A DNA stretch of 64,000 nt from Flavobacteriales bacterium (GCA_047601855.1 JASGIM010000003.1:725761-789760), one strand, 5' to 3'; shown: positions 2,282-23,309, counted from the first letter of the stretch. Made by a program: numbers and translations. The notes: generated by a model not told the origin, from the sequence alone.

Positions 2282-2331
2282 GCCTCCATCGCAAACGCCT
2301 GTGGGCCGTTCCGGATTGCTCCTGACTGCGC

Positions 2332-3669
2332 TCAGAGCCGTTCGTTCGCCAGATTGGCAAGTGCGCTGCGCTCGCCCTTCTCCAAGGTGATGTGTGCGAA
2401 GAGTGGATCCCCCTTCGCTTTGTCGATGAGGTAGCTGAGACCGTTGCTCTCGCTGTCCAAGTAGGGCGTATCGATCTGGTGTACATCGCCGGTGAAGACG
2501 ATCTTGGTGCCTTCACCCGCGCGGCTGATCACGGTCTTGATCTCCAGCGGCGTCAGGTTCTGCGCCTCGTCCACGATGAAGAAGATGTTGCTGAGGCTGC
2601 GCCCGCGGATGTAGGCCAGCGGCGCGATCTGGATCTTCTCGTTCTCCAGCATCTCGTCGATGCGCTTGGGCGTGCTGTCGTGCTTCTCGAAGTTGCCCTT
2701 GATCAGCTTCAGGTTGTCCCACAGCGGCTGCATGTAGGAATCGAGCTTGCTCTGGATGTCGCCGGGCAGGTAGCCGATGTCCTTGTTGCTCAAGGGTACC
2801 ACCGGCCGGGTAACGTAGATCTGCCGGTAGTCGCGGCGCTGCTCCAGTGCGCAGGCCAGGGCCAGCAGCGTCTTGCCCGTGCCCGCCGCACCCTGCAACG
2901 TCACCAGCTTGATCTCGGGGTCCAGCAACGCCGCCATGGCCAGCGCCTGTTCAGCGTTCTTCGGGCTGATACCGAACACGTTCTGCTTCTCCACGCGCGA
3001 CACGGCCCCCGTGCGCGGATTCGTACTTGCTCAGGATGCTCTTCTTTTTGTGCTTGAGGATGAAGAAGTGGTTGCCGCTCGGCTTCTCCAGGCCCACCTC
3101 CTCCACGGGCAGGCTGCCCTGCTCGAAGAGCGTGTTGATCAATGTCTCGTCCACGTCCTCCATCACCGTGCGGCCGGTGTAGAGCTTTTCCCGAACGTCG
3201 CGCACCTTGCCGGTGAGGTAGTCCTCCGCGATGATGTCGAGGCTCTTCGCCTTCAGGCGCAGCGCGATGTCCTTGCTCACCAGCACCACCTTGCGGTCCT
3301 TGTGCTGGCGCTGCAACGTGAGCGCCGCGTTGATCGATCTGGTGGTCGTTCTTGCCGTCCTGGAACACCTTGGTGGCGTCCACGCCGTTGAGGTCGTGCT
3401 TGGCCACCACCTTGAACCGGCCCTTGGTGGGGCCGTTCAGCGGTGCCCAGTCCGTGAGCAGGTCCTTTTGTCCGATGCTGTCGAGGTGGCGGATGAACTC
3501 CCTTGCTTCGAAATTGATCGTGTCGTTGCCTTTTTTGAACGTGTCGAGTTCTTCGAGTACTTGTATCGGGATGGCCACGTCGTGCTCCTGGAAGCTTTCG
3601 ATGGCCGAGTGGTCGTACAGGATGACTGAAGTATCCAGCACGAAGATCTTCCGGTCTTTCTTCTTCATT
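2332..3669 (-). CDS. PIN-domain PhoH-like ATPase (YlaK family), disrupted by two frameshifts
   Basis: The N-terminal PIN segment ([23 protein letters not shown]...) is in the frame of ORF 2901..3866. The middle is in ORF 2951..3316. The C-terminal PhoH P-loop part (GAAGTGKT... [14 protein letters not shown]) is in ORF 2332..3003. Frame changes occur near 3290-3316 and near 3003-3030, the latter at a CCCCC run. Confidence 0.8.
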
Positions 3670-3875
3670 CGATCAAGGAACGGTTGTTCCAAAAGTGGCG
3701 GTACCGCGGCCGGATACGCGATCGGCCGGACCGCACTTATCCACGATCGATCGTGCCCTGCCGGGCCAGATCCCGCTATGACATTGATGGCGGCCACCGG
3801 CCTCGTGGCATACGGTGAACACGAGCCCGACATCAGCGGCCTGGTTCCTGAAGGAGCCGTCCCCACCTATGGCGG

Positions 3876-4208: not shown

Positions 4209-4687
4209 GAAGCCCTCACGGCACGAACACCACGCGGCGGCCGCTGTCCATGGGGCGGTCCCACACGGCCTGCACGTCGCGCAGCGGCACCACCTCCGCA
4301 TCGACGGTGAGGATGCCTTGCGCCGCCAGCGCGAAGAGCTTCGGGAAGGTCTCGGCCAAGTGGGCGGGTGACATGCTGCCGCCGCCGCTGCCCATCAGAT
4401 CGATCGCAGAGCTGCGCAACGTACCGCCCCGCAGCTGGATCGTGGGGGCCGGCCATCTCGCCGATCTGCACGATGCGCGTGCGGTGCGGCGTGCAGGCCG
4501 TGGCCCGTGAGCGCGTGCAGCAGGGCCTCCATCGGCGGTCCCCACAGGTAGTCCAGCACCACATGGAGCAAATATCCGCAGATGTCACAGATGACGCAGA
4601 TGGATGCCAATGCCCTGCTTGCCACGTATTCATCTGTGTCATCGGCGCCATCTGCGGAAAAGGACCCTGCGGGCTACTTTCGCCACC

Positions 4688-6328
4688 ATGGCCGAGAAGA
4701 TCGACATCGAAGCGAGCAAGAACGAGGACCACAACAAGCTGGCCGTCTCCCAGCTGCACAAGCGCCTGCAAGCCGTATACAAGGGCGGCGGCGAGAAGCG
4801 CATCGCGGCCCACAAGGAGAAGGGCAAGATGACCGCCCGCGAGCGCATCGACGCGCTGCTGGACCCGAAGAGCCCGCGCATCGAGATCGGCGCGTTCGCC
4901 GCCGATGGCATGTACACCGAGCACGGCGGCTGCCCCAGCGCGGGTGTGGTCGTCGTGATCGGCTACGTGAGCAAACGCCAGTGCATCGTGGTGGCCAACG
5001 ATGCCACGGTGAAGGCCGGCGCGTGGTTCCCCATGACGGGCAAGAAGAACCTGCGCGCACAGGAGATCGCCATCGAGAACCGCCTGCCCATCATCTACCT
5101 CGTGGACAGCGCCGGCGTGTACCTGCCCATGCAGGACGAGATCTTCCCCGACAAGGAGCACTTCGGCCGCATCTTCCGCAACAACGCGGTGATGAGCTCC
5201 ATGGGCATCACGCAGATCGCCGCCGTCATGGGCAGCTGCGTGGCGGGTGGCGCCTACCTGCCGATCATGAGCGACGAGGCGCTGATCGTGGAGAGGACGG
5301 GCAGCATCTTCCTCGCGGGCAGCTATCTGGTAAAAGCCGCCATCGGCGAGGACATCGACAACGAGACCCTCGGCGGTGCCACCACGCACAGCCAGATCAG
5401 CGGCGTCACCGACTACCAGTGCAAGGACGATGCGGACTGCCTGAAAAGATCCGCGCGATCATGGACAAGCTGGGCAAACCAAAGGACGCCGGTTTCAGCC
5501 GCGAGAAGCCCGCCAAGCCCAAGGCCGACCCGGCGGCCATCTACGGCCTGCTCCCCACCGACCGCGCCAAGCCCTACGATATGCGCGAGATCATCGCCCG
5601 CTTGGTGGACGACAGCGACTACACCGAGTACAAGGAGGGCTACGGCCAGAGCATCATCACGGCCTACGCCCGCATCGATGGCTGGGCCGTGGGCATCGTG
5701 GCGAACCAGCGCAAGGTGGTGAAGAGCAAAAAGGGCGAGATGCAGTTCGGCGGGGTGATCTACAGCGACAGCGCCGACAAGGCCACGCGCTTCATCGCCA
5801 ACTGCAACCAGAAGAACATCCCGCTGGTGTTCCTGCAGGATGTGACCGGCTTCATGGTGGGCAGCCGCAGCGAGCACGGCGGCATCATCAAGGACGGCGC
5901 GAAGCTGGTGAACGCCGTGAGCAACAGCGTAGTGCCCAAGTTCACCGTGATCGTGGGCAACAGCTACGGCGCGGGCAACTATGCCATGTGCGGCAAGGCC
6001 TATGACCCACGGCTTATTGTCGGCTGGCCCAGCGCACAGGTGGCCGTGATGGGCGGCGACCAGGCTGCCAAGGTGCTGCTGCAGATCGAGGTGGCGGCGC
6101 TGAAGGGGCGCGGCGAGGAGATCACGAAGGAGCGCGAGGAGGAGGATCCTCGGCAAGATCCGCGCGAAGTACGAGGAGAGCATGAGCCCATACTACGCGG
6201 CGGCACGGCTGTGGCTGGACGCGATCATCGATCCGATGGAGACGAGGACGTGGATCAGTATGGGGATAGAGGCGGCGCAGCAGAGCCCGGCGACGAAGGA
6301 GTTCAATATGGGGGTGTTGCAGACGTAG
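4688..6328 (+). CDS. pccB: Propionyl-CoA/methylmalonyl-CoA carboxylase carboxyltransferase (beta) subunit, two frameshifts
   Basis: Acyl-CoA carboxyltransferase sequence from MAEKIDIEASKN... through ...VVANDATVKAGAW...AVMGSCVAGGAYLP. The frame switches near 5440 and again near 6140 (GAGGAGGAGGA run). The true C-terminus ...GIEAAQQSPATKEFNMGVLQT ends at TAG 6326-6328. Confidence 0.85.
6260..6328. repeat. Left copy of an imperfect ~68-bp direct repeat (native 3' end of pccB)
   Basis: atggggatagaggcggcgcagcagagcccggcgacgaaggagttcaatatgggggtgttgcagacgtag is repeated at 7059-7125 as atggggggtcgaggcggcgagccaagaaccgacggagggagttcaatatggggtgttgcagacgtaag. Confidence 0.75.
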
Positions 6329-6354
6329 TAATTGCTGAATACAACTCCATACCG

Positions 6355-7050
6355 ATGAAAGTCCTTGACGCGCTGAAGCGCATTGATAGCCTTCTAGTCG
6401 GGCTCTTCGTGGTGTTTCTCTTTGGCTCAATCGGCTTACTCATTGCCAAGCAGTTTCCCGCGGAAAAGCACTGGCATTCAGATTTGGCCGATTACGCCAT
6501 GAATCTTGCATTGGCCTATGTAGGTACGTTCTTCTTCTTTCTACTCTCAGACATGCGAGCTGAAGCCAAGTTGGCGCAGACAATTCATCAGCAAGTGGAG
6601 TTGTTCAACGAGAGGCTGGTAACCGTCTCGAACATGGTCGTGAATTCCCTTGAGCAAGATAATCGTAGGCAAACTGACACCAACACGCTCACGCACACAT
6701 CACCGGAAATCGACGCTCTTACACGCGAAGCCCGTAATCGTGTGTCGAACGAAACGGGACGAACCTATGATGCCATCCTCAACCGAGACCTTGGCCGGGC
6801 ATACAACCAACTAGCACCATACATCGCTCAAATAGGCATTGTTGATCCAGCCCTATTCAGAGCTATAACCCGCGCTGCGAACGAACCGGTTCAACTGGTA
6901 CTGCCGGATAACATTGTGGAAAATGACCCGAACAACGCACTACCAGCAGACCGTATCGGTATCAAACTCGACCATGTCCTGACTTACTTCAAGAACTTTG
7001 CACCGCATGTGCTGCACCGCGGCGACCCGGGCTATGCACCACGCAAGTAA
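6355..7050 (+). CDS. Hypothetical 2-TM membrane protein, AT-richer than flanks
   Basis: 231 aa starting MKVLDALKRIDSLLVGLFVVFLFGSIGLLIAKQF. Two N-terminal hydrophobic helices, then a roughly 150-aa soluble tail. No recognisable domain. It lies exactly between the two repeat copies. Confidence 0.6.
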   Translation: MKVLDALKRIDSLLVGLFVVFLFGSIGLLIAKQFPAEKHWHSDLADYAMNLALAYVGTFFFFLLSDMRAEAKLAQTIHQQVELFNERLVTVSNMVVNSLEQDNRRQTDTNTLTHTSPEIDALTREARNRVSNETGRTYDAILNRDLGRAYNQLAPYIAQIGIVDPALFRAITRAANEPVQLVLPDNIVENDPNNALPADRIGIKLDHVLTYFKNFAPHVLHRGDPGYAPRK

Positions 7051-7058
7051 TCGTCATC

Positions 7059-7125
7059 ATGGGGGGTCGAGGCGGCGAGCCAAGAACCGACGGAGGGAGT
7101 TCAATATGGGGTGTTGCAGACGTAA
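7059..7125. repeat. Right, degenerate copy of the pccB 3'-end direct repeat
   Basis: See the 6260-6328 entry. Indels leave this copy out of frame (ORF 7059..7262 reads MGGRGGEPRTDGGSSIWGVADVRG). Confidence 0.7.
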
Positions 7126-7280
7126 GAGGTTTGGGCGTGCCCCCGCCTCAAATGCAGGCAGGGTCCGGCTTTCCGCTCCAAGTCCGCACTCGTCGTTCCT
7201 CCTCACTTGCGGGCTTTCCGCTGCAATCCGTCATGCGGAATATGGGGCATACCTTCAAGTAAGACATACACCTCACATAC

Positions 7281-9029
7281 ATGGCCACCAAGAGCATCAT
7301 TGATAAATCGACTGAACTCAAGGAATATGTTGCGCAGTTCGACATAGACTCATTCTGTGGTTTTTGTGCATTCTTCATCCGGAGTCGTACCAAAGGTGAG
7401 CTATCGGGCAACATGACGATGTTCAAGTCGATGCAGAAGGAACTTACATATCTCATGGCTCTGAACTACTTCAATCAGAAAAGTATGTCAAAGTATTTCC
7501 TGACAACGGATGAGACAATAGCCGAGCTTGCTCGGAAAGTCAATGACATCAAAGAGAGCTACATAAGGGATAGCTTCTCGGAGCTACGCATGAACGTGGA
7601 TAGGCCTTATCAGCGGCGTGCCTTGATACACGAACAGATGTTTCGATTCTTCTATGACAACGGCATCCTAAATTATATGGAACAAGAGGTCAACCGTATT
7701 GAGATGACCTATGGCCCGCATGACGAAGTGATCCGCATTGCAACGGGCTTGACCGTTCAGGATTATCTGGATTGTTTCGTTGCTCTCGAGAACATACAAC
7801 GTGCAAAGGAGATCGAGGCGACAAGGATATTTCGAGATCCGATAATCCAAGAAACAGTCATCCTATTGAGGGAAGTTGTAACCGATGATAATAGAGATGA
7901 ATTCATGCGTACGGTCGAGAATCTTCCCGATAACCTAAGGTCTGAATTTATGAGGTTCAACGAGTGTCCGCATAGTCATCTCAAGGTAGGAGTTGATGAC
8001 CTATCAGTATTTGTGGATAAAGTGGTTGCCGTCAAATTCCTTGACTGTATGTCGGTTAGCCCATCAGCATATGCCGGATTCAGCTACTACGATGAGTTCA
8101 ATCCATTGGAGGCTCATCCTTTATTGCGAATAGGAAACGATTACATGCATACCAATGGCAAACAGCTCCTTGTGGCCATCAATGACTTCCTGTTCACTAT
8201 TCTGAAGACTCAAAAGACCACTTCACGCGCTTGCCGGGCAGTTGAGACGCAGTTGGAGCAACAGACCAGAAACGTTGTAGAGCGATTCTTCAGCAAGGGA
8301 GACTTGAATGTCTATCAGAACTACTACGTCGCCGGTGGACTGGAGCAAGATCTCCTGATAGAGATAGGCCCTAAGGTGATTATTTGTGAATGCAAGTCGA
8401 CCCGTTTGAGAAGCCCGCTCCGGGATATAGACAAGTTCTATACCAGAGCGAGAGATGATTTCCGGCGATCCATTCAGAAGGGCTACGATCAAGCGGATCG
8501 GGTGGCAGACTTGATCACTAAGCAAAAGGAAACCATACTCTACGATCACAAAGGCAAGGAACGTGGCCGGGTCAGGCAGAGGTCACCTAAGGACGTATGT
8601 GTCTGGGTGGTTACAGACAAATCGCTTGGACCGGCTCAAGTCGATCTGTCTTACATGCTTGATTCCAGCAAAGCGCTTATGGACTACCCATGGTCACTTT
8701 GTATTGACGATCTTGAAACCTTCCTACTCTATCTGTCGAAATTTCCCAATCCATTTTCAAGACTATTCGATTATCTGCGCTTTCGACCACGTCTATATGG
8801 TCGGGTCATTTCTCCTGATGAGCTGGATATTGTGGGTTGGTATATAACGAACAGACCAAAGTTCCTAGCAGCCTGTATGAATGATTCAGACTGGGTTCTT
8901 GTTGATTTGAAGTTGCAAGGGATTTTCGACAAGGAGTATCATAGTGAGAAAGGGCTGGGATTTGATGAGCGCTTACGTGACCGACTTTGGAATGAAGATG
9001 ATTGGGAGCGCGAGGACAAGCTGGATTGA
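7281..9029 (+). CDS. Uncharacterised 582-aa protein with a PD-(D/E)xK-like nuclease motif
   Basis: Markedly AT-rich coding sequence. The motif GGLEQDLLIEIGPKVIICECKSTRL fits a D...E-x-K nuclease core. No Walker A/P-loop seen. The N-terminal ~350 aa show no recognisable family. Confidence 0.6.
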   Translation: MATKSIIDKSTELKEYVAQFDIDSFCGFCAFFIRSRTKGELSGNMTMFKSMQKELTYLMALNYFNQKSMSKYFLTTDETIAELARKVNDIKESYIRDSFSELRMNVDRPYQRRALIHEQMFRFFYDNGILNYMEQEVNRIEMTYGPHDEVIRIATGLTVQDYLDCFVALENIQRAKEIEATRIFRDPIIQETVILLREVVTDDNRDEFMRTVENLPDNLRSEFMRFNECPHSHLKVGVDDLSVFVDKVVAVKFLDCMSVSPSAYAGFSYYDEFNPLEAHPLLRIGNDYMHTNGKQLLVAINDFLFTILKTQKTTSRACRAVETQLEQQTRNVVERFFSKGDLNVYQNYYVAGGLEQDLLIEIGPKVIICECKSTRLRSPLRDIDKFYTRARDDFRRSIQKGYDQADRVADLITKQKETILYDHKGKERGRVRQRSPKDVCVWVVTDKSLGPAQVDLSYMLDSSKALMDYPWSLCIDDLETFLLYLSKFPNPFSRLFDYLRFRPRLYGRVISPDELDIVGWYITNRPKFLAACMNDSDWVLVDLKLQGIFDKEYHSEKGLGFDERLRDRLWNEDDWEREDKLD

Positions 9030-9048
9030 TCCAAGAAGTGTCATGATT

Positions 9049-9993
9049 TCATGAATTGTCTCCGTAGTGTATTGCATTCATGACATTGAGAGGAAACATG
9101 GGGTAGCTCAGGTCATCGTCTTCCAAATCGGTTCGATAGAACTTGATCATGTCCATCGCAACACCCAAATCATCTCTATCCGGTCGGCTCATAGATGCCT
9201 CCAACCAATCAAACGCTTCTGAAACATCCTCAACAAGCGCTTGCATCTTTCGATGTACTCCTTGGCGATGAATGAACTTGAGGACGGTCAACCCCGGCAA
9301 AGCCACTCTCAGGTCCCGAAGATGAATGACAGCGTCATACACGATCGAGTTTCCTGCATCGATACACAACTTGGCCAACGCGCGGATTTGTTCTTCATGC
9401 GCTCCCCCGTGAGCACTCGGAAAAAAGTTGTACACCAACGAGCTGATCACTCCGGTATGTTCTTCGGACGAGCCCGATCGCGTCATGTGAGAAACAGATG
9501 ACAGTAGCTGCAATACGGCGAGAGCAACCCTGTAATTGGTGTAGTCGGCATAGATGCCAAGCTTGCTGAGCACATCGGCCCGCTCCGTTCTTGACGTTGC
9601 ATAGTACTCCGCCTCGATCTTGATGACGTCCAGCAATATGGTGGCAGTCAGGCTTGCTTCTATTAGTGCCCCCTCCGTTAACCCATGTATCGGCTGATCC
9701 ATTAACCCTACTACCTTCTTTCTCTCATTCGCTATCGCTTGGTAGTGTAAGCTGCGGTACCGGCGGATTACACCCGGGGTCAGCTTCCTGATAAGGGGAG
9801 AGGTACGTTCGGCCTCTTCATGATGAGCAAAGCATAGGAAGGCCAAATTGTCCTCAACCGTGTTTGAAGAATCACCATCCAAGTGGTGAAGATGAACCCC
9901 ACGCTCCCGACATACGCAGCATTGCATGTGGGACTTGAACATCACTTCGTCCTCAGTAGTGCGTGACCGCACTCGTTTACTCTTCTTATGCAT
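9049..9993 (-). CDS. HNH endonuclease-domain protein with an uncharacterised ~230-aa C-terminal domain
   Basis: The N-terminus CCVCRERGVHLHHLDGDSSNTVEDNLAFLCFAHHEEAE carries the CxxC...HH...N...N...CxxHH HNH zinc-finger signature. Convergent with the 582-aa gene. AT-richer than flanks. Confidence 0.7.
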   Translation of the reverse strand: MHKKSKRVRSRTTEDEVMFKSHMQCCVCRERGVHLHHLDGDSSNTVEDNLAFLCFAHHEEAERTSPLIRKLTPGVIRRYRSLHYQAIANERKKVVGLMDQPIHGLTEGALIEASLTATILLDVIKIEAEYYATSRTERADVLSKLGIYADYTNYRVALAVLQLLSSVSHMTRSGSSEEHTGVISSLVYNFFPSAHGGAHEEQIRALAKLCIDAGNSIVYDAVIHLRDLRVALPGLTVLKFIHRQGVHRKMQALVEDVSEAFDWLEASMSRPDRDDLGVAMDMIKFYRTDLEDDDLSYPMFPLNVMNAIHYGDNS

Positions 9994-10549
9994 TGATGGG
10001 AATCTGCCCGCAATTTACCTCCAACCCTCAGGGCTACCCTCTTCGAGACGCTGTGACCTTGCCAGACAAGAGCCTCCCGCATCCGTCTTCGGGCGCTTGG
10101 TCTCCCCATTCCTCGGAAGACCAACTTGGGTTAGACCCTGTATACGCCACTTGCCGGAACCGCCCAACCTCCTACTTTCGTCCCGTCATACATACAGGCG
10201 GCAGTGCCGCCGGTCCTTCTCACCGGGAATTACGACACCCTAAGGAAGAGTTGAAGGATTACGCACAGCGTGCGCTCACATGGGCGCGGGCTGCTGTCGT
10301 AGTCCGCGCTCTTCAGGCCGTCGTAAGCCTCCGGTGAGCGGCTCGGTGGTGGTTCCGCGCCCACCACGTGAAAGCCCACACCACTCCTTGGTTCCGGAGT
10401 CCACGTACGATGCTCCGCACATGCGGTATAAGCATCTGTGCGCGCATTCGGCTTTGGTGTTCCGCGCGGTGTGTGCGGTTTCCGACAGGGTTGGCCGTGC
10501 CCCATCTGATAACCCATGCCCACGTGCCGGAATACACCCATTGAAAGCC

Positions 10550-11158
10550 ATGGCGCTCACCCTTACGCCCATCACCGAGCCGGAGAAGCTGGATGAGTAC
10601 TACCGCTTTCGGTATCGGATATACAGCGACAGCGGCATGCAAAGGTTTGTCATTGATGCCGGGGGCTTGGACAAGAATCCTTTCGATGAGCGTGCCCGAC
10701 ACTACGGTTGGTACGTGGATGGAACGTTGGCTGGCTGTGTGCGATTCATCGAGCCGGATGGAAGTGCAGTCCCGATCCCAACCCTTGCAGTATTGAACGG
10801 CGGGTTGGGAACTGCTGTGCGCTCATACGTTGCCGAACGGGAAGCATTGAGTCAGCCAATGGCGGAGGCCAGTCGCTTCTGTCTGGCACAAGCCTACCGA
10901 GGTCTGCGGACAACCAGGGAGTTCGTGCTTGCCATGGTAGCGACCATGCAGCCCCTTGGCTACGAACATGGAGTATTCAACTGCCGCCAAGAACATTCAC
11001 AGTTCTATAGAACGTTGGGGTTCGATCCGTTGCATAACGGAGGAGGCCAATACGTTCCATGTCTGGAGGAGACGCTGGTCGTGTTCCAATGCGACTTCGC
11101 TAAGTTGGTGGGAAAGAATGCCCGATTGAGGGAACTCATTTCCTCCTTCAAGAAATGA
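10550..11158 (+). CDS. GNAT-fold N-acyltransferase, autoinducer-synthase/N-acyl amino acid synthase-like
   Basis: About 203 aa from MALTLTPITEPEKLDEYYRFRYRIYSDS... The YRFRYRIY and later FCL..AYRG blocks resemble the LuxI/OlsB/N-acyl-amino-acid-synthase (Acetyltransf_5) family. Confidence 0.55.
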   Translation: MALTLTPITEPEKLDEYYRFRYRIYSDSGMQRFVIDAGGLDKNPFDERARHYGWYVDGTLAGCVRFIEPDGSAVPIPTLAVLNGGLGTAVRSYVAEREALSQPMAEASRFCLAQAYRGLRTTREFVLAMVATMQPLGYEHGVFNCRQEHSQFYRTLGFDPLHNGGGQYVPCLEETLVVFQCDFAKLVGKNARLRELISSFKK

Positions 11159-11793
11159 TGAAGAAGTTGTCCTTCACCCTCTTCTTCCTGCTGCTGTTCC
11201 ACGTGTTGCCACTATGCTTGAAGCCATGGCTTCTACTCACATGGCCGGTGCTGGTGCTCGCCTTCTTCTGCACGGTGCTCTTCGCCACCCAACCGGCGTT
11301 AAGCGTGGAGGAGAGCAAGCGGAACAAGTCCACGGACGGCTGGACGATATGGCTCATCATCGGCGTGAGCGGCATGGGCCAGATCGCAAGCTTGGTGGAT
11401 TGGGCCTATTCCCAAGCCGCACCGCAGGCGCTGGATGCATGGGTCGTGAGCGGCCTTGTGTTGCTGCCTTTCGGAACGGCCTTCCGGCTGTGGGCCATCA
11501 ACACCCTGAAGAACAACTTCGCCGCCACGGTGCAGATCAAACAGTGCCAGCAACTCATCACCAGCGGGCCGTACAAGTGGCTGCGGCACCCCAGCTACAC
11601 CGGCGCATGGGTTGCCATGGTGGGTGCAGCGCTATTGATGCACAGCATGGTGGGCCTGCTCATCATGGGGCCGGGCATGCTTTGGGTGTATGGCTGCCGC
11701 ATCGCCACCGAGGAACGCACGTTGGAGGCCGCCTTCGGGGAGGCGTACCGGGAGATGAAGGGCAGGACGTGGCGGATGCTGCCGGGGTGGTGA
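11155..11793 (+). CDS. Isoprenylcysteine carboxyl methyltransferase (ICMT/PEMT) family membrane methyltransferase
   Basis: 212 aa, multi-TM. Family signature ITSGPYKWLRHPSYTGAWV, and the C-terminal ...EERTLEAAFGEAYREM. The start overlaps the upstream stop (ATGATGA). Confidence 0.75.
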   Translation: MMKKLSFTLFFLLLFHVLPLCLKPWLLLTWPVLVLAFFCTVLFATQPALSVEESKRNKSTDGWTIWLIIGVSGMGQIASLVDWAYSQAAPQALDAWVVSGLVLLPFGTAFRLWAINTLKNNFAATVQIKQCQQLITSGPYKWLRHPSYTGAWVAMVGAALLMHSMVGLLIMGPGMLWVYGCRIATEERTLEAAFGEAYREMKGRTWRMLPGW

Positions 11794-20378: not shown

Positions 20379-23309
20379 TTATTCCTTGTCGTCGTAGCCG
20401 AACAGGTCCTTCAACGTGAGCTTGCGCACGGGCCCAAGGTGTTCGAGCGCGGCCTTGTCCATCTGCGCCTCCTTCCCGATCACGAGGTAGGTGTAGTGGT
20501 GGCCCTTGATCTCCTTGTCGAAGAACGCCTTCAGGTCGGGCAGGGTCATCTGCTGGATGCGGAAGTAATTGTCCTTGCGCACATCGTAGTCCAGTCCCAG
20601 GCGCTTGGCGCGGTCCCAGTTCCAGAAGAGGTTCTCCTTGGTGATGCGTTCGGAACCGATGCGCTTCAACGCGGCGTCCTTCGCGCCTTGGAACTGGCGT
20701 TCGTCCAGCGGCATGTCGTTCATCAGGGCGAGCATGGCGGTGACCGCATTGCCAAGCTTATCGGTCTGCGTGCCGACGTAGCCGCGCACGTAGTGGGCAT
20801 CCTCCTTCTTGCCGGGAGTGGTGTAGGCGGCATAGGCGGAATAGGCCAGTGCTTTCGCTTCACGGATCTCCTGGAACACGATGGAGGACAGTCCGGCACC
20901 GAAGTATTCATTGAACACCTGGGCGGCGGGCAGGACCGTCCGATCGAACGCTTCGGACTTGGACGTGAGCAGCATTTCGGTCTGCACCATGTCGTAATCG
21001 ACGTAGAGCACCTCGTTCTTCGTGGTGGGCTGCTCGGTGTACACGGTGGCCTTCGGCGTCAGCAACAACGTGGCGGGGACGCGATGCTCCTTGTCGAGGA
21101 GGGCCACCATGTCGTCGGGCGTGCGGTGGCCATAGAAGAACAGGCGGTGGTCGTAGCTGGTAAGCTCGTGGATGCGACCCACCAGTTCCTCCGGCTTCAC
21201 GGCCTTCAGTTCCTCCATGGAGAGCTGATCGCGCAGGGGGCTGTGCTCGCCATAGCGGGCATAGCTGGAGAGGCCGTTGAAGAGGATATGCCCCTTGTTC
21301 TTCAGGTTGTCCGAACGCTCCTTGCCGATGTCCTTCACCAGCTCGCTCAGGGCCTTCGGATCGGCCTTGGCCTCGGCGAGCACTTGCTCGAAGAGGCGGA
21401 TGCCCTTGTCCAGGTTCTTCTCCAGTCCGGAGAGGGTGACGTACACCCGGTCCTCGCCTGCAAATACATCGTAGGACAGGCCCAGTTTGAAGAACTCCTT
21501 CTTCAGGTCCGTCGCGGACATGGTGGCGGTGCCGAGGTAGGGCAGGTAACGCACCGCGAGGTCGAGCTTGCGGTCGTTGTTGGTGCCCATGTCCAGGATG
21601 TAGTAGAGCGAGAACAGCTCATTGGTGGTGTTGGGCACTTCGCTGAACGACAGGCCGTTCTTCGCCAGGGTGCGCTGGTCGATGGAGGCCTTGTAGTCCA
21701 CGAACACCGGCGTCATGGGAGGATCGGGCACGGCGCTCCAGGCCTTGAAGAAGGCGCTCTGCCCGCCACGGTTGATGTCCAGCGGCGTGATCTTGGGCTT
21801 GGGCACGTGGAAGGCGTCCTTGTTCTCGCCGGTGCGCTTGAACACGCACACGTAGTTGTTGCTGAAGTTCTTCGCGGCGAAGTCCATCACTTCCTGCTTG
21901 GTGATGCGGCCCATGCGGTCGTAGTGGTCCACCACGTCCTTCCAATCCTTGTGCAGGACGAAGGCATCGGTGAGCGCGGCGGCGCGGCGGCCGTTGTTGT
22001 CGTTCCAGTACTGGATCTGGTCCTTCTTGTAGTTGTTCACCACGGCCTCGATCAGCCAGTCGTCGAACTGGCCCTTCTTCACCTTCTCCAGTTCGGCCAG
22101 CAGCAGGTCGCGCACGTCCTCCAGCTTCTGCCCTTCCTTGGCCTCGCCGCTCATGCCGAACTCGGAGTAGTCGATCTGCGTGTCCGAGTAGGCGGCCGCG
22201 CTGAGCACTTTCTGCTGCTGCACCAGGTCCAGGTCGCACAAGCCCGCACTGCCGTTGCTCAACAGGCCCGAGATCAGCTCGATCATGATCGGGTCGCCGC
22301 TCTTGTAGCCGTTGAAGCGCCAGCCGAGGTCCACCCATTCCGCCTGTGGTCCGAACACGTCCATCGTCACCGGTGCGGTGATGGGCTCCTCCGGCTTGAA
22401 GGTGAAGGGCGGCACGGGCTTCGGTTTCCACGGGCCGAAGTACTTGTCCACCATGGCGATGGTCTTGTCGTAGTCCAGGTCGCCCGCCATGATCACGGCC
22501 ATGTTGTTCGGCACGTAGTACGTATCGAAGTACTCGTGGATCTTCATCATGCTCGGGTTCTTCAAATGCTCGCCCGTGCCGATGGTGGTCTGCGTGCCGT
22601 AGGGGTGGTATTTGTACAAGGCCTTGGACATGGCCTGGGAGGCGTTCCGGCCGTCGTTGTCCTGCCCGCGGTTGAATTCCTCGAACACCGTTTCGAGCTC
22701 CGTGTGGAAGAGGCGCAGTACGCATTCCTGGAAACGCACGGATTCGAGCATCATCCATTTCTCCATCTCGTTGGAGGGGATGTCGTTCACGTACACCGTG
22801 CATTCGGTGCTGGTGTAGGCGTTGGTGCCCTTCGCGCCGATGCTGGTCACCATCTTGTCGTACTCGTTCGGCACGGCATAGGTGGCGGCCAGGTGGCTCA
22901 CGCTGTCGATCTGGTGGTAGATGGCCTCGCGCCGGGCTTCGTCCGTGGTGACGCGGCGCAGCTCATAGAGGTCGGAGATGCGCTGGAGCAACGGGGCCTC
23001 CTTCGCCCAATCCACCGTGGCGATGGTGCTGGTGCCCTTGAAGAGCATGTGCTCCAGGTAATGGGCCAGGCCGGTGGCCGATGAAGGGTCGTTCTTGCTG
23101 CCGGCGCGCACGGCGATGTTGGTCTGGATGCGCGGGGCATCCGGGTTGTTGCTGAGGTAGACCGTGAGCCCGTTGTCCAAGGTGTAGATCCGCGTGGCCA
23201 GGGGATCGCCGGGAATGGAGGTGTAGGGATAGGTCTTCTGCGCGCAGGCAGGGGCGATCGCCACGGCGATCGACAGGGAAATGAGCAGGATCCGGGTTCG
23301 CATGTCCAT
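20379..23309 (-). CDS. M16-family (pitrilysin/insulinase-like) zinc peptidase, two-module
   Basis: Signal peptide MRTRILLISLSIAVAIAPACAQ. Inverted zinc motif HYLEHMLFKGT (HxxEH). About 970 aa, typical of tandem M16 active and inactive halves. Confidence 0.8.
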   Translation of the reverse strand: MDMRTRILLISLSIAVAIAPACAQKTYPYTSIPGDPLATRIYTLDNGLTVYLSNNPDAPRIQTNIAVRAGSKNDPSSATGLAHYLEHMLFKGTSTIATVDWAKEAPLLQRISDLYELRRVTTDEARREAIYHQIDSVSHLAATYAVPNEYDKMVTSIGAKGTNAYTSTECTVYVNDIPSNEMEKWMMLESVRFQECVLRLFHTELETVFEEFNRGQDNDGRNASQAMSKALYKYHPYGTQTTIGTGEHLKNPSMMKIHEYFDTYYVPNNMAVIMAGDLDYDKTIAMVDKYFGPWKPKPVPPFTFKPEEPITAPVTMDVFGPQAEWVDLGWRFNGYKSGDPIMIELISGLLSNGSAGLCDLDLVQQQKVLSAAAYSDTQIDYSEFGMSGEAKEGQKLEDVRDLLLAELEKVKKGQFDDWLIEAVVNNYKKDQIQYWNDNNGRRAAALTDAFVLHKDWKDVVDHYDRMGRITKQEVMDFAAKNFSNNYVCVFKRTGENKDAFHVPKPKITPLDINRGGQSAFFKAWSAVPDPPMTPVFVDYKASIDQRTLAKNGLSFSEVPNTTNELFSLYYILDMGTNNDRKLDLAVRYLPYLGTATMSATDLKKEFFKLGLSYDVFAGEDRVYVTLSGLEKNLDKGIRLFEQVLAEAKADPKALSELVKDIGKERSDNLKNKGHILFNGLSSYARYGEHSPLRDQLSMEELKAVKPEELVGRIHELTSYDHRLFFYGHRTPDDMVALLDKEHRVPATLLLTPKATVYTEQPTTKNEVLYVDYDMVQTEMLLTSKSEAFDRTVLPAAQVFNEYFGAGLSSIVFQEIREAKALAYSAYAAYTTPGKKEDAHYVRGYVGTQTDKLGNAVTAMLALMNDMPLDERQFQGAKDAALKRIGSERITKENLFWNWDRAKRLGLDYDVRKDNYFRIQQMTLPDLKAFFDKEIKGHHYTYLVIGKEAQMDKAALEHLGPVRKLTLKDLFGYDDKE

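What the first reader, a model, noticed from the sequence alone, without database searches (positions are those of the whole stretch)
6260..10300. AT-rich foreign island at the 3' end of pccB carrying a membrane protein, a PD-(D/E)xK-like protein and an HNH-domain protein: candidate undescribed defence module
Coding sequence from about 6.33 kb to 10.0 kb is conspicuously AT-richer (by eye about 42-50% GC) than the 65-70% GC flanks. It starts exactly at the stop codon of pccB, and an imperfect ~68-bp copy of the pccB 3' end reappears at 7059-7125, which looks like att-site duplication. The three genes inside have no housekeeping counterpart. The first is a 2-TM protein with a soluble tail. The second is a 582-aa protein with a D...ExK nuclease-like core and no P-loop. 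The third is a convergent protein with an N-terminal HNH zinc-finger nuclease domain and an unknown ~230-aa C-terminal domain. Two predicted nuclease folds plus a small membrane protein, horizontally acquired with no integrase or transposase, is the usual look of anti-phage or abortive-infection cassettes. I cannot match it to a named system such as Septu, Zorya, Shedu, Kiwa or Gabija from the sequence alone.
Basis: partly seen in the sequence, partly recalled or inferred. Interest (0 to 1): 0.85.

Follow-up and report, generated by a model that had tools for sequence, protein, structure and literature searches.

The report
Defence-gene hotspot downstream of pccB
The AT-rich stretch after the pccB gene of this Flavobacteriales genome is real foreign DNA, but it is a patchwork of three independently acquired genes (a small membrane-protein cassette, a stand-alone NERD-type nuclease and a stand-alone HNH nuclease) at a recurrent insertion hotspot, not one new three-gene defence system.

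Summary
Bases 6.3-10.05 kb have 47-51% GC against 63.7 +/- 2.2% elsewhere, the lowest in the window. The low-GC DNA begins at the pccB stop codon, and a decayed 63-nt copy of the pccB 3' end lies at 7062-7124.

That repeat brackets ORF1 alone. Native-GC DNA follows it (7125-7250), carrying a Flavo-1-like structured element also found after pccB in relatives. So there are two separate inserts.

The three genes do not travel together:
- ORF1 occurs only as a pccB-linked cassette. Related genomes carry arrays of such integrase-less cassettes, each bounded by pccB-3' copies, much like CIME/microCIME accretion.
- ORF2 belongs to a large unnamed family (2,470 cluster representatives). It has an invariant D357/E370/K372 core, NERD hits in 27 of 60 members, a restriction-endonuclease fold, Upx as its only significant Foldseek match, and a far-sub-threshold GapS1 hit. 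Homologs lie beside or inside RM systems.
- ORF3 is an HNH finger fused to a HEAT-like solenoid. Its small family also lies beside RM genes.

Best reading: a defence or conflict-gene hotspot holding two independent candidate single-protein nuclease defences. No function was tested here.

The parts
4688..6328 (+). pccB-like acyl-CoA carboxylase carboxyltransferase beta subunit, the target gene of the hotspot. It is read in three frame segments because of two 1-nt indels near 5445 and 6147.
   Evidence: Three-frame translation. 598 relatives confirmed in genomes, the nearest at 93% identity. Both indels sit at GATC.
6262..6328 (+). Functional 3' end of pccB, the left (attL-like) copy of the direct repeat.
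   Evidence: Similarity between copies ends exactly at the stop codon.
6355..7050 (+). ORF1, 231 aa: an N-terminal membrane anchor followed by a soluble tail of about 165 aa. It is the single gene of a 0.73-kb cassette, co-oriented with pccB, starting 26 nt after the pccB stop.
   Evidence: Hydropathy. No Pfam, PADLOC, NCBIfam or PHROGs family. Three metagenome homologs at 78-80% identity, all in the same pccB-flanked position.
7062..7124 (+). Decayed copy of the last ~66 nt of pccB (right, attR-like repeat). It has a 3-nt and a 1-nt deletion relative to the functional end.
   Evidence: The sequence downstream of it matches what follows pccB in L049, which has no cassette.
7158..7245 (-). Flavo-1-like structured element in native-GC DNA (0.62). 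It is the conserved downstream neighbour of pccB in relatives and separates the two foreign inserts.
   Evidence: Rfam RF01705, 38.3 bits (gathering score 42), E = 1.6e-5. Homologous copies after pccB in L049, L009, L095 and L096. 5 of 15 pairs show compensatory changes. GC.
7281..9029 (+). ORF2, 582 aa: a stand-alone NERD-type PD-(D/E)xK nuclease. It has an N-terminal helical domain (~1-335), a nuclease core (E326, E355, D357, E370, K372, Q404) and a C-terminal helical domain.
9049..9993 (-). ORF3, 314 aa: an N-terminal HNH zinc-finger nuclease motif (C25/C26, C28, H35, H36, N44/N49, C53, H56) plus a C-terminal HEAT-like alpha-solenoid (~107-300). It is convergent with ORF2, 19 nt between the stop codons.
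9994..10552 (.). Non-coding spacer in which GC climbs back to the native level. This is the approximate right edge of the second insert. No flanking repeat was found.
   Evidence: No repeats, no Rfam hit and no match in any locus.

Best explanation
The region is a variable hotspot for defence or conflict genes immediately downstream of pccB in a high-GC Flavobacteriales lineage. It holds two separate acquisitions.

(A) A 0.73-kb integrase-less cassette, 6329-7061, carrying ORF1 (a small membrane protein).
- It sits at the pccB stop codon and is bracketed by direct copies of the pccB 3' end.
- Relatives carry up to four such cassettes in a row. The cargo includes a ParE-type toxin-antitoxin pair, a SUKH-1 immunity protein, a DUF4468 protein and a secreted protein. 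All are co-oriented with pccB.
- This is the pattern left by site-specific integration into a gene's 3' end followed by tandem accretion and decay (CIME/microCIME-like).

(B) Beyond the native Flavo-1-like element lie two convergent, unrelated, stand-alone nuclease genes.
- ORF2 is a NERD-type PD-(D/E)xK nuclease with a large helical N-terminal domain. I infer that it works as a single-protein sensor-effector: the helical domains hold the nuclease off until a phage cue is bound, and the nuclease then cuts nucleic acid (DNA or RNA, unknown) and stops infection. This is how GapS1 (capsid-triggered), Upx (terminase-triggered) and ZwsA (a NERD RNase) are reported to work.
- ORF3 is an HNH nuclease fused to a HEAT-like solenoid. 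I infer that it is likewise a self-contained sensor (solenoid) plus effector (HNH).

Shown here: composition, repeats, absence from relatives, catalytic motifs, folds, family sizes and neighbourhoods. Inferred: defence function, triggers, substrates and the integration mechanism.
For: Foreignness. Absence from the nearest pccB loci, with different cargo in each.

Two inserts.
- Window 7054-7241 aligns with the native pccB end and downstream DNA of L049.
- GC of 7125-7250 is 0.62.
- A Flavo-1-like element follows pccB in four relatives.

Cassette arrays.
- L095 has pccB-3' copies at 5-177, 223-300, 1040-1107, 3329-3499 and 4215-4262, separating four cassettes.
- L009 has a toxin-antitoxin cassette between two copies.
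- All 7 cassette genes are co-oriented with pccB.

Independence of the three genes.

ORF2.
- D357, E370, K372 and Q404 are invariant across 60 members at 19-70% identity.
- Pfam NERD hits 27 of 60 members.
- Foldseek's only significant PDB hit is Upx, E = 1.1e-5.
- NCBIfam GapS1, E = 3.8e-6, over residues 193-418.
- The E326-D357-E370-K372 spacing (31/13/2) nearly matches ZwsA's E535-D567-E580-K582 (32/13/2).
- Neighbours: MmeI-type RM directly upstream twice, inside a type I RM operon, a DEAD/ResIII helicase 36 nt upstream, and a HEPN protein nearby on a plasmid.

ORF3.
- The HNH motif is conserved across the members that retain the N-terminus.
- Neighbours: Eco29kI RM plus a C5 methyltransferase, a type IIG RM plus DUF6731, and an MmeI_C fragment, DUF559, PBECR2 and PLDc_2.

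Mechanistic analogies.
Against: - No phenotype exists for any of the three families.
- ORF2 itself does not reach Pfam NERD at E <= 0.1, and scores only 26 of the 320 bits needed for GapS1.
- Only 2 of 60 family members touch the GapS1 model.
- There is no sequence link to Upx, and TMq is only 0.38.
- The defence-neighbourhood evidence rests on about 8 contexts for ORF2 and 3 for ORF3, with no statistical enrichment test. One ORF2 context shows nothing defence-like (L006).
- The HNH part of the ORF3 model is low-confidence (pLDDT ~45), and all its HNH profile hits are weak (E = 3e-4 to 0.1).
- No integrase that targets pccB was found, so the CIME-like origin is inferred from anatomy alone.
- The right boundary of insert B has no repeat.
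Confidence: 0.6

Rival explanations
1. One reading: ORF1, ORF2 and ORF3 form one three-gene defence or abortive-infection module that was acquired as a unit at the pccB att site.
For: The three genes are adjacent in one low-GC block, and all are orphan-like.
Against: - The repeat encloses ORF1 only, and native-GC DNA with the native Flavo-1-like element separates ORF1 from ORF2.
- None of the other ORF2, ORF3 or ORF1 contexts recovered has either of the other two genes.
- ORF2 and ORF3 are convergent, so they are not an operon.
Confidence: 0.04
2. ORF2 and ORF3 are not immune genes. They are selfish or decaying mobile-element nucleases: orphan restriction endonucleases, homing-type HNH nucleases, or accessory or relic subunits of the RM systems they neighbour. 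They were stranded in a recombination hotspot.
For: - ORF2's best fold matches are type IIS restriction catalytic domains, and two homologs sit immediately downstream of MmeI-type enzymes, one with a 23-nt gap.
- A free-standing T5orf172/HNH_repeat gene occupies the same hotspot in L049.
- HNH genes are classic homing endonucleases (PHROGs hits).
Against: - The ORF2 family keeps its full ~570-620-aa three-domain architecture and catalytic residues across 19-70% identity and thousands of clusters, which argues for selection on a cellular function.
- Its RM neighbours are of three unrelated types, and several contexts have none.
- The ORF3 family keeps a solenoid domain that is unusual for homing enzymes.
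- No methyltransferase partner is present in the window.
Confidence: 0.22
3. The pccB-3' copies and cassettes are made by homologous (RecA-type) recombination or tandem duplication between diverged pccB ends carried on transformed DNA, not by a site-specific integrase.
For: - Copy lengths vary from 48 to 170 nt, and copies are 72-92% alike.
- In Maribacter L044 the extra copy accompanies a plain tandem duplication of the downstream gene.
- No integrase was seen.
Against: - Every copy ends exactly at the stop codon and shares the same ~30-nt conserved core.
- Unrelated cargo is found at the same point in several genomes.
- The anatomy matches CIME/microCIME accretion as described in PMC7563491.
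Confidence: 0.2
4. The low-GC block is an assembly or binning artefact: a chimeric join of DNA from another organism in the metagenome.
For: The source is a MAG with evident indel errors.
Against: - The contig is 1.65 Mb.
- The ORF1 cassette in the same pccB context is seen in three independent metagenome assemblies.
- The native pccB remnant and Flavo-1-like element lie between the two inserts.
- The copies are too diverged (about 80%) to cause graph mis-joins.
Confidence: 0.03

Closest known systems
GapS1 (GAPS1), the single-protein anti-phage system of Vibrio/Enterobacteria GMT islands (bioRxiv 10.1101/2023.03.28.534373; NCBIfam NF047931)
   Same: One polypeptide with a helical N-terminal part and a PD-(D/E)xK core in the C-terminal half (GAPS1 D313/K328; ORF2 D357/K372). 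It is the only named family with any sequence hit to ORF2. That alignment runs about 130 residues upstream of the nuclease core (ORF2 193-418 against model positions 167-357).
   Different: The score is 26 bits against a 320-bit cut-off, and only 2 of 60 ORF2-family members hit. ORF2 is longer, with an extra conserved C-terminal domain of about 170 aa (R502, D513, E514). Its host is Bacteroidota. The trigger and outcome (T7 capsid, dormancy) are untested here.
Upx, the single-protein dual PD-(D/E)xK defence nuclease (PDB 9wuf; PMC13099982, PMC13601566)
   Different: Upx has about 1,270 aa and two nuclease-like domains plus a middle domain, whereas ORF2 has 582 aa and one core. There is no HMM-level similarity. 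TMq is 0.38. Which Upx domain is matched was not reported by the tool.
ZwsA (Zowangsin), a stand-alone NERD-domain RNA endonuclease against RNA phages (bioRxiv 10.64898/2026.04.06.716636), and the Pfam NERD domain PF08378
   Same: A NERD-type core with nearly the same catalytic spacing, E-(31/32)-D-(13)-E-x-K. 27 of 60 ORF2-family members hit PF08378. NERD proteins are said to be frequent in defence islands.
   Different: ZwsA is described with VHS, DUF647 and S4 domains and a core about 200 residues further along the protein. ORF2 itself is below Pfam NERD detection.
HNH effectors of defence systems: ZorE of type II Zorya, and the HNH-APAZ effector of SPARHA (PDB 9om4, PMC12738770)
   Same: ORF3's CxxC-HH-N-DNL-CxxH finger gives its best, though weak, profile hits to ZorE (E = 2.6e-4) and to 9om4 (E = 0.12).
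   Different: No ZorA/ZorB and no Argonaute is nearby. The ZorE model scores 14.8 of 600 bits. ORF3's C-terminal HEAT-like solenoid is not part of either.
CIMEs/microCIMEs and tandem accretion of integrated elements at the 3' end of a housekeeping gene (for example fda or tRNA-Lys in streptococci; PMC7563491)
   Same: Short elements without recombinase or transfer genes, flanked by direct repeats that copy the target gene's 3' end. They stack in tandem, with the older, more decayed copies further from the gene.
   Different: These are in Bacteroidota and at pccB. The cassettes are very small (0.6-1.4 kb, one or two genes), and all are co-oriented with the target gene. No parent ICE or IME, and no integrase for this site, has been seen.

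Membership tests
GapS1 family (NCBIfam NF047931) | Whole-protein score at or above the curated cut-off (320 bits) | tested here: not met
   26.1 bits, E = 3.8e-6, partial match 193-418. Only 2 of 60 family members hit, best E = 5e-8.
GapS1 family (NCBIfam NF047931) | Single protein with an essential PD-(D/E)xK D...K active site in the C-terminal half | tested here: met
   D357, E370 and K372 are invariant in 60 sequences. The fold is confirmed. GAPS1's D313 and K328 are essential.
GapS1 family (NCBIfam NF047931) | Phage-capsid-triggered growth arrest that protects against phage | not testable with these tools
   Needs an experiment.
NERD domain (Pfam PF08378) | Match to the Pfam model | tested here: inconclusive
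   ORF2 itself has no hit at E <= 0.1. 27 of 60 homologous full-length family members hit at E <= 0.01, best 1.4e-7. UniRef names P0008 'NERD domain-containing'.
NERD domain (Pfam PF08378) | E...D...ExK catalytic signature on a restriction-endonuclease-like fold | tested here: met
Upx (Gao et al. defence system) | A protein of about 1,200 aa with an N-terminal atypical nuclease, a middle domain and a C-terminal PD-(D/E)xK domain; match to Upx profiles | tested here: not met
   ORF2 has 582 aa and one core. No Upx model appears among PADLOC hits for ORF2 or the 60 relatives. No PDB sequence hit. Only fold-level similarity.
Type II Zorya (ZorE) | ZorE equivalog score (600 bits) and co-located ZorA/ZorB motor genes | tested here: not met
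   14.8 bits. The neighbouring genes are ORF2 and a GNAT.
HNH nuclease superfamily | beta-beta-alpha-metal finger with CxxC...H(H/N)...N...CxxC/H | tested here: inconclusive
   The motif is present and conserved in all members that retain the N-terminus. Profile hits are weak. There is no Pfam hit. The AF2 model of this part is low-confidence.
   No co-occurrence in any recovered context. ORF2 and ORF3 are convergent.
Integron / CALIN cassette array | attC imperfect palindromes between cassettes and, for integrons, intI plus attI | tested here: not met
   The repeats are direct copies of a coding 3' end with no R''/R' core or palindrome. No recombinase family among the hits to ORF1-3.
CIME / microCIME (decayed integrated element) | Flanked by att-type direct repeats that copy the 3' end of the target gene; no recombination or transfer genes | tested here: met
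   6262-6328 against 7062-7124 around ORF1 only. The same layout in L096, L095 and L094. A toxin-antitoxin cassette in L009.
CIME / microCIME (decayed integrated element) | Derived from, and mobilisable by, an ICE or IME whose integrase uses the same att site | not testable with these tools
   No such element was found in the 80 pccB loci inspected. The rest of the MAG could not be scanned.

The most novel reading that the evidence does not exclude
The 3' end of pccB in this Flavobacteriales clade works as an integron-like capture platform without a resident integrase. Very small one- or two-gene cassettes each bring a mimic of the last 50-170 nt of pccB and insert at the stop codon. They are all oriented so that pccB read-through transcribes them, and they accumulate in arrays of conflict genes (toxin-antitoxin pair, SUKH immunity protein, membrane protein). 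This would be a new kind of gene-cassette system, not merely decayed islands. A second, independent novel claim is that the unnamed 2,470-cluster ORF2 family is a widespread single-protein immune nuclease.
Probability: 0.12. Interest if true: 0.8.

Novelty: new variant of a known kind. Interest (0 to 1): 0.42.

Why it matters
If ORF2 protects against phage, it would name a large, currently unannotated family found in Bacteroidota, Bacillota, Halobacteria and others. That family has thousands of 50%-identity clusters and is absent from Pfam as a family, from PADLOC 2023 and from NCBIfam. It would add a third lineage to the GapS1 and Upx type of single-protein PD-(D/E)xK sensor-nucleases.

ORF3 would add an HNH-solenoid fusion to the list of single-gene candidates.

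The pccB site gives a concrete, PCR-testable hotspot for finding accessory conflict genes in poorly studied high-GC Flavobacteriales. It is also a possible example of CIME-like accretion outside Firmicutes.

None of this overturns current ideas. It extends known patterns.

Tried and rejected
- PADLOC 'PDC-S12' and E2 hits in 11 of 60 ORF2 relatives looked like a link to a candidate defence system. They cover only the C-terminal SEC-C zinc motif of those members, so I rejected them.
- The word-indexed protein search suggested an 8-member family. The exhaustive HMMER search showed 2,470 representatives, so 'ultra-rare family' is wrong.
- The 413-aa gene after the closest ORF2 homolog (L001-3) and the 412-aa DUF4062 gene after P0018 (L098/99) looked like a conserved partner. 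They are unrelated to each other and to ORF1 and ORF3.
- Looked for a third pccB-3' copy or any direct repeat bounding ORF2-ORF3. The only candidate is a 17-nt, 88% match (7127-7143 against 10487-10503), which is at chance level (and my own estimate of about 1-2 expected).
- Flavo-1 as a REP-like repeat tied to the RAYT/IS200-like gene that flanks the hotspot in L008, L049 and L009: there is only one copy in 64 kb, so the idea is not supported here.
- Synteny beyond pccB: GNAT, ICMT and PhnA are absent from all 80 pccB loci. The right boundary therefore could not be fixed by comparison.
- I could not obtain GapS1, ZwsA or Upx-CTD sequences for a profile-profile test. The GapS1 supplement held only Klebsiella coordinates.
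- The afdb50 fold library was unavailable.
- The exact-protein look-up of the source contig failed.
- The Maribacter L044 extra pccB tail is a plain tandem duplication, not a cassette.

Full report
SOURCE AND QUALITY. The window comes from a 1.65-Mb contig of a MAG labelled 'Flavobacteriales bacterium'. ORF2 is QM724_09885 and ORF3 is QM724_09890. The window has 62.8% GC. The assembly has indel errors. The pccB-like carboxyltransferase (4688-6328) has to be read in three frame segments, and the PhoH-like gene upstream also has two frameshifts. Three of these four indels sit at GATC and one in a G5 run. I therefore treat them as base-calling errors, not pseudogenisation. ORF1, ORF2 and ORF3 align end to end with their homologs, so they are intact.

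CHECK OF THE OBSERVATION. The AT-rich block is real and extreme. The 1-kb bins between 6.5 and 10.0 kb have 46.6-50.9% GC, against 63.7 +/- 2.2% in the other 117 bins (z = -5.8 to -7.7). These are the six lowest bins of the window. Tetranucleotide deviation is also the highest in the window (0.337 against 0.193 +/- 0.040). GC3 is 0.53-0.57 in the three ORFs, against 0.84-0.93 in pccB, ICMT and PhnA. The drop begins at the pccB stop codon. The last ~66 nt of pccB recur at 7062-7124 (82% identity, exact 17-mer at the end, one 3-nt and one 1-nt deletion). The gene descriptions are correct:
- ORF1 has an N-terminal membrane anchor and a soluble tail.
- ORF2 has E355-x-D357...E370-x-K372, and no P-loop family matched.
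- ORF3 is convergent and has a CxxC-HH-N-DNL-CxxH finger.
- No tRNA was found, and none of the family hits to ORF1-3 is to an integrase or transposase.

THE ISLAND IS TWO INSERTS, NOT ONE. In the closest cassette-free relative (L049, pccB 91% identical), the DNA that follows pccB aligns with window 7054-7241. That stretch is the decayed pccB copy plus the next ~120 nt. It has native GC (0.62) and contains a Flavo-1-like structured element on the minus strand (RF01705, 38.3 bits against a gathering score of 42, E = 1.6e-5). The same element follows the last pccB-3' copy in L049, L009, L095 and L096. Across seven copies, 5 of 15 base pairs show compensatory changes. So the direct repeat brackets only ORF1 (6329-7061). 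ORF2 and ORF3 lie beyond the native downstream element and have no bounding repeat.

A RECURRENT CASSETTE SITE. ORF1 has three metagenomic homologs (78-80% identity), all in the same position after pccB.
- Contig L095 is an array. It has pccB-3' copies at 5-177, 223-300, 1040-1107, 3329-3499 and 4215-4262. These separate the ORF1 homolog, a 436-aa secreted protein, a ParE-type toxin-antitoxin pair and a DUF4468 protein. Flavo-1-like elements follow two of the copies.
- L009 (pccB 88% identical) has the same toxin-antitoxin pair between two copies, then a SUKH-1 immunity protein. Beyond Flavo-1 it has a DUF2971 protein and a 1,438-aa DUF4011/AAA_11/AAA_12/MTES_1575 helicase-nuclease.
- L049 has a T5orf172/HNH_repeat gene there.

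The copies are 48-170 nt long and 72-92% alike. They share a ~30-nt core, GAGTTCAATATGGGGGTGTTGCAGACGTAG, and similarity stops exactly at the stop codon. All seven cassette genes point the same way as pccB, and most start 11-35 nt after the preceding stop. No recombinase is present. This anatomy matches CIMEs/microCIMEs and tandem accretion at the 3' end of a target gene, as described in streptococci (PMC7563491). Homologous recombination between diverged pccB ends is a rival I cannot exclude. In Maribacter L044 an extra pccB tail comes from a simple tandem duplication.

THE THREE GENES ARE INDEPENDENT.
- ORF2 homologs lie directly downstream of MmeI-type RM enzymes (L001; L005 with a 23-nt gap), between hsdM and hsdR of a type I system (L088), and 36 nt after a >1,032-aa DEAD/ResIII helicase (L101). 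Others lie next to a DUF4062 gene (L098/99), near a HEPN gene on an Exiguobacterium plasmid (L097), or with nothing telling nearby (L006).
- ORF3 homologs lie beside Eco29kI RM and a C5 methyltransferase (L004), beside a type IIG RM and DUF6731 (L089), or between PBECR2 and PLDc_2 near an MmeI_C fragment and DUF559 (L091).
- In none of these contexts does a second member of the trio appear. ORF2 and ORF3 are convergent in the window.

The 'one module' reading is therefore not supported. The 'defence neighbourhood' reading is supported for each gene separately, but from few contexts and without a statistical test.

WHAT ORF2 IS. The word-indexed search found only 8 relatives. The exhaustive HMMER search found 2,470 cluster representatives (360 below 1e-30), most of them full-length at 560-640 aa.
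- In a 60-member alignment (19-70% identity to ORF2), D357, E370, K372, Q404 and E514 are invariant. E326, E355, P379, R502, D513 and others are nearly so.
- Pfam NERD hits 27 of 60 members and a C-terminal SEC-C motif 12 of 60. ORF2 itself is below detection.
- The AF2 model is confident (pLDDT 86, pTM 0.86). It has a helical N-terminal half, an alpha/beta nuclease core (strands 342-372, helix 383-414, strands 417-445) and a helical C-terminal domain.
- Foldseek against the PDB has a single significant hit, Upx (9wuf), E = 1.1e-5, 620 aligned columns, TMq 0.38.
- By sequence, the only named family touched is NCBIfam GapS1: 26 bits against a 320-bit cut-off, but spanning ~130 residues upstream of the core, and hitting only 2 of 60 members.
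- PADLOC gives nothing real. The PDC-S12 and E2 hits are the SEC-C motif.
- The catalytic spacing E-31-D-13-E-x-K almost equals that reported for the NERD defence RNase ZwsA.

ORF2 is thus a NERD-type PD-(D/E)xK nuclease of a large unnamed family. It is not a member of GapS1 or Upx, but it is built like them.

WHAT ORF1 IS. It is a 231-aa protein with an N-terminal membrane anchor and no family assignment. It is known only as a pccB cassette. Its function is open. Its sister cassettes carry toxin-antitoxin and immunity genes, which suggests conflict-related cargo, but nothing more can be said.

MECHANISM (INFERRED). For ORF2, I infer a self-contained sensor-effector: the helical domains keep the nuclease inactive until a phage component binds, then nucleic-acid cleavage stops infection. 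This follows GAPS1 (T7 capsid trigger, D313/K328 essential, dormancy), Upx (terminase ATPase or gp16 trigger, ExK essential) and ZwsA (NERD RNase selective for RNA-phage genomes). Whether the substrate is DNA or RNA cannot be told. For ORF3, I infer that the solenoid is the recognition module and the HNH finger the effector. For the cassettes, I infer integration into the pccB 3' end by a recombinase supplied in trans, with each newcomer providing the new gene end and pushing older copies downstream.

VERDICT. The locus is a defence or conflict-gene hotspot of a familiar kind. Its most useful content is:
- a large, unnamed, RM-associated NERD-nuclease family that merits testing as a single-gene defence;
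- an HNH-solenoid candidate;
- a tidy example of integrase-less cassette accretion at a protein-coding gene's 3' end in Bacteroidota.

Interest is moderate (0.42). Novelty: a new variant of a known kind.

Noticed in passing
window 4688-6328 (pccB) and ~2330-3790 minus strand (PhoH-like/PIN gene): Each gene has two 1-nt frameshifts. Three of the four lie at GATC (CTGAAAAGATCC ~5445, GAGGAGGATCC ~6147, CAGATCGATCAAC ~3330) and one in a G5 run (~3005). This looks like systematic base-calling error at a methylated motif, not pseudogenes. The three low-GC ORFs have 19 GATC sites and no frameshift.
   Followed up: partly
window 7158-7245 (-); L095 4311-4407 and 1136-1217; L049 1382-1456; L009 12777-12854: A Flavo-1-like structured element (29-38 bits, below Rfam's gathering score of 42) is the conserved neighbour of the pccB 3' end in this clade. 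5 of 15 pairs show compensatory changes across 7 copies. It is the only copy in the 64-kb window. Its function is unknown; a published transcriptome study found Flavo-1 hits in either orientation and often untranscribed (PMC9723704).
   Followed up: partly
L095 1-4745, L094, L096, L009 11635-12355: Arrays of one- or two-gene cassettes, each bounded by a 48-170-nt copy of the pccB 3' end, all co-oriented with pccB and lacking any recombinase. Cargo: the ORF1 homolog, a ParE toxin-antitoxin pair, a SUKH-1 protein, a DUF4468 protein and a 436-aa secreted protein.
   Followed up: partly
L008 2903-3103 (-), L049 2239-2424 (-), L009 ~20700-20890: A conserved fragment (91% DNA identity between L008 and L049) forms the right flank of the pccB hotspot in three relatives. 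By eye its translation resembles the C-terminus of an IS200/RAYT-type Y1 transposase (WQRNYxDRVIRDDGEHERIAKYI), but no profile search was run on it. It is absent from the window.
   Followed up: no
window 10553-11158 and 11155-11793: A FeeM/GNAT-like N-acyl amino acid synthase (GC3 0.63, mildly low) overlaps by 4 nt an isoprenylcysteine-carboxyl-methyltransferase-family membrane protein (GC3 0.86). This is an unusual pairing. Neither gene is found near pccB in any of the 80 related loci.
   Followed up: no
window 9883-9993 (-): The public gene call for ORF3 (277 aa) starts about 37 codons too late and cuts off the first CxxC of the HNH finger. Homologs of 312-317 aa support the 314-aa reading.
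   Followed up: yes
L001 5585-11770; L005 5840-11213: Two ORF2 homologs (70% and 52% identical) sit directly after MmeI-type type IIL restriction-modification genes that are 66% identical to each other, with only a 23-nt gap in L005. This may be a recurrent RM-plus-NERD pairing that the window lacks.
   Followed up: partly
L044 11639-15279 (Maribacter MAG): A tandem duplication covers a 580-aa secreted protein gene together with the last ~84 nt of pccB. It shows that extra pccB tails can also arise by plain segmental duplication.
   Followed up: yes
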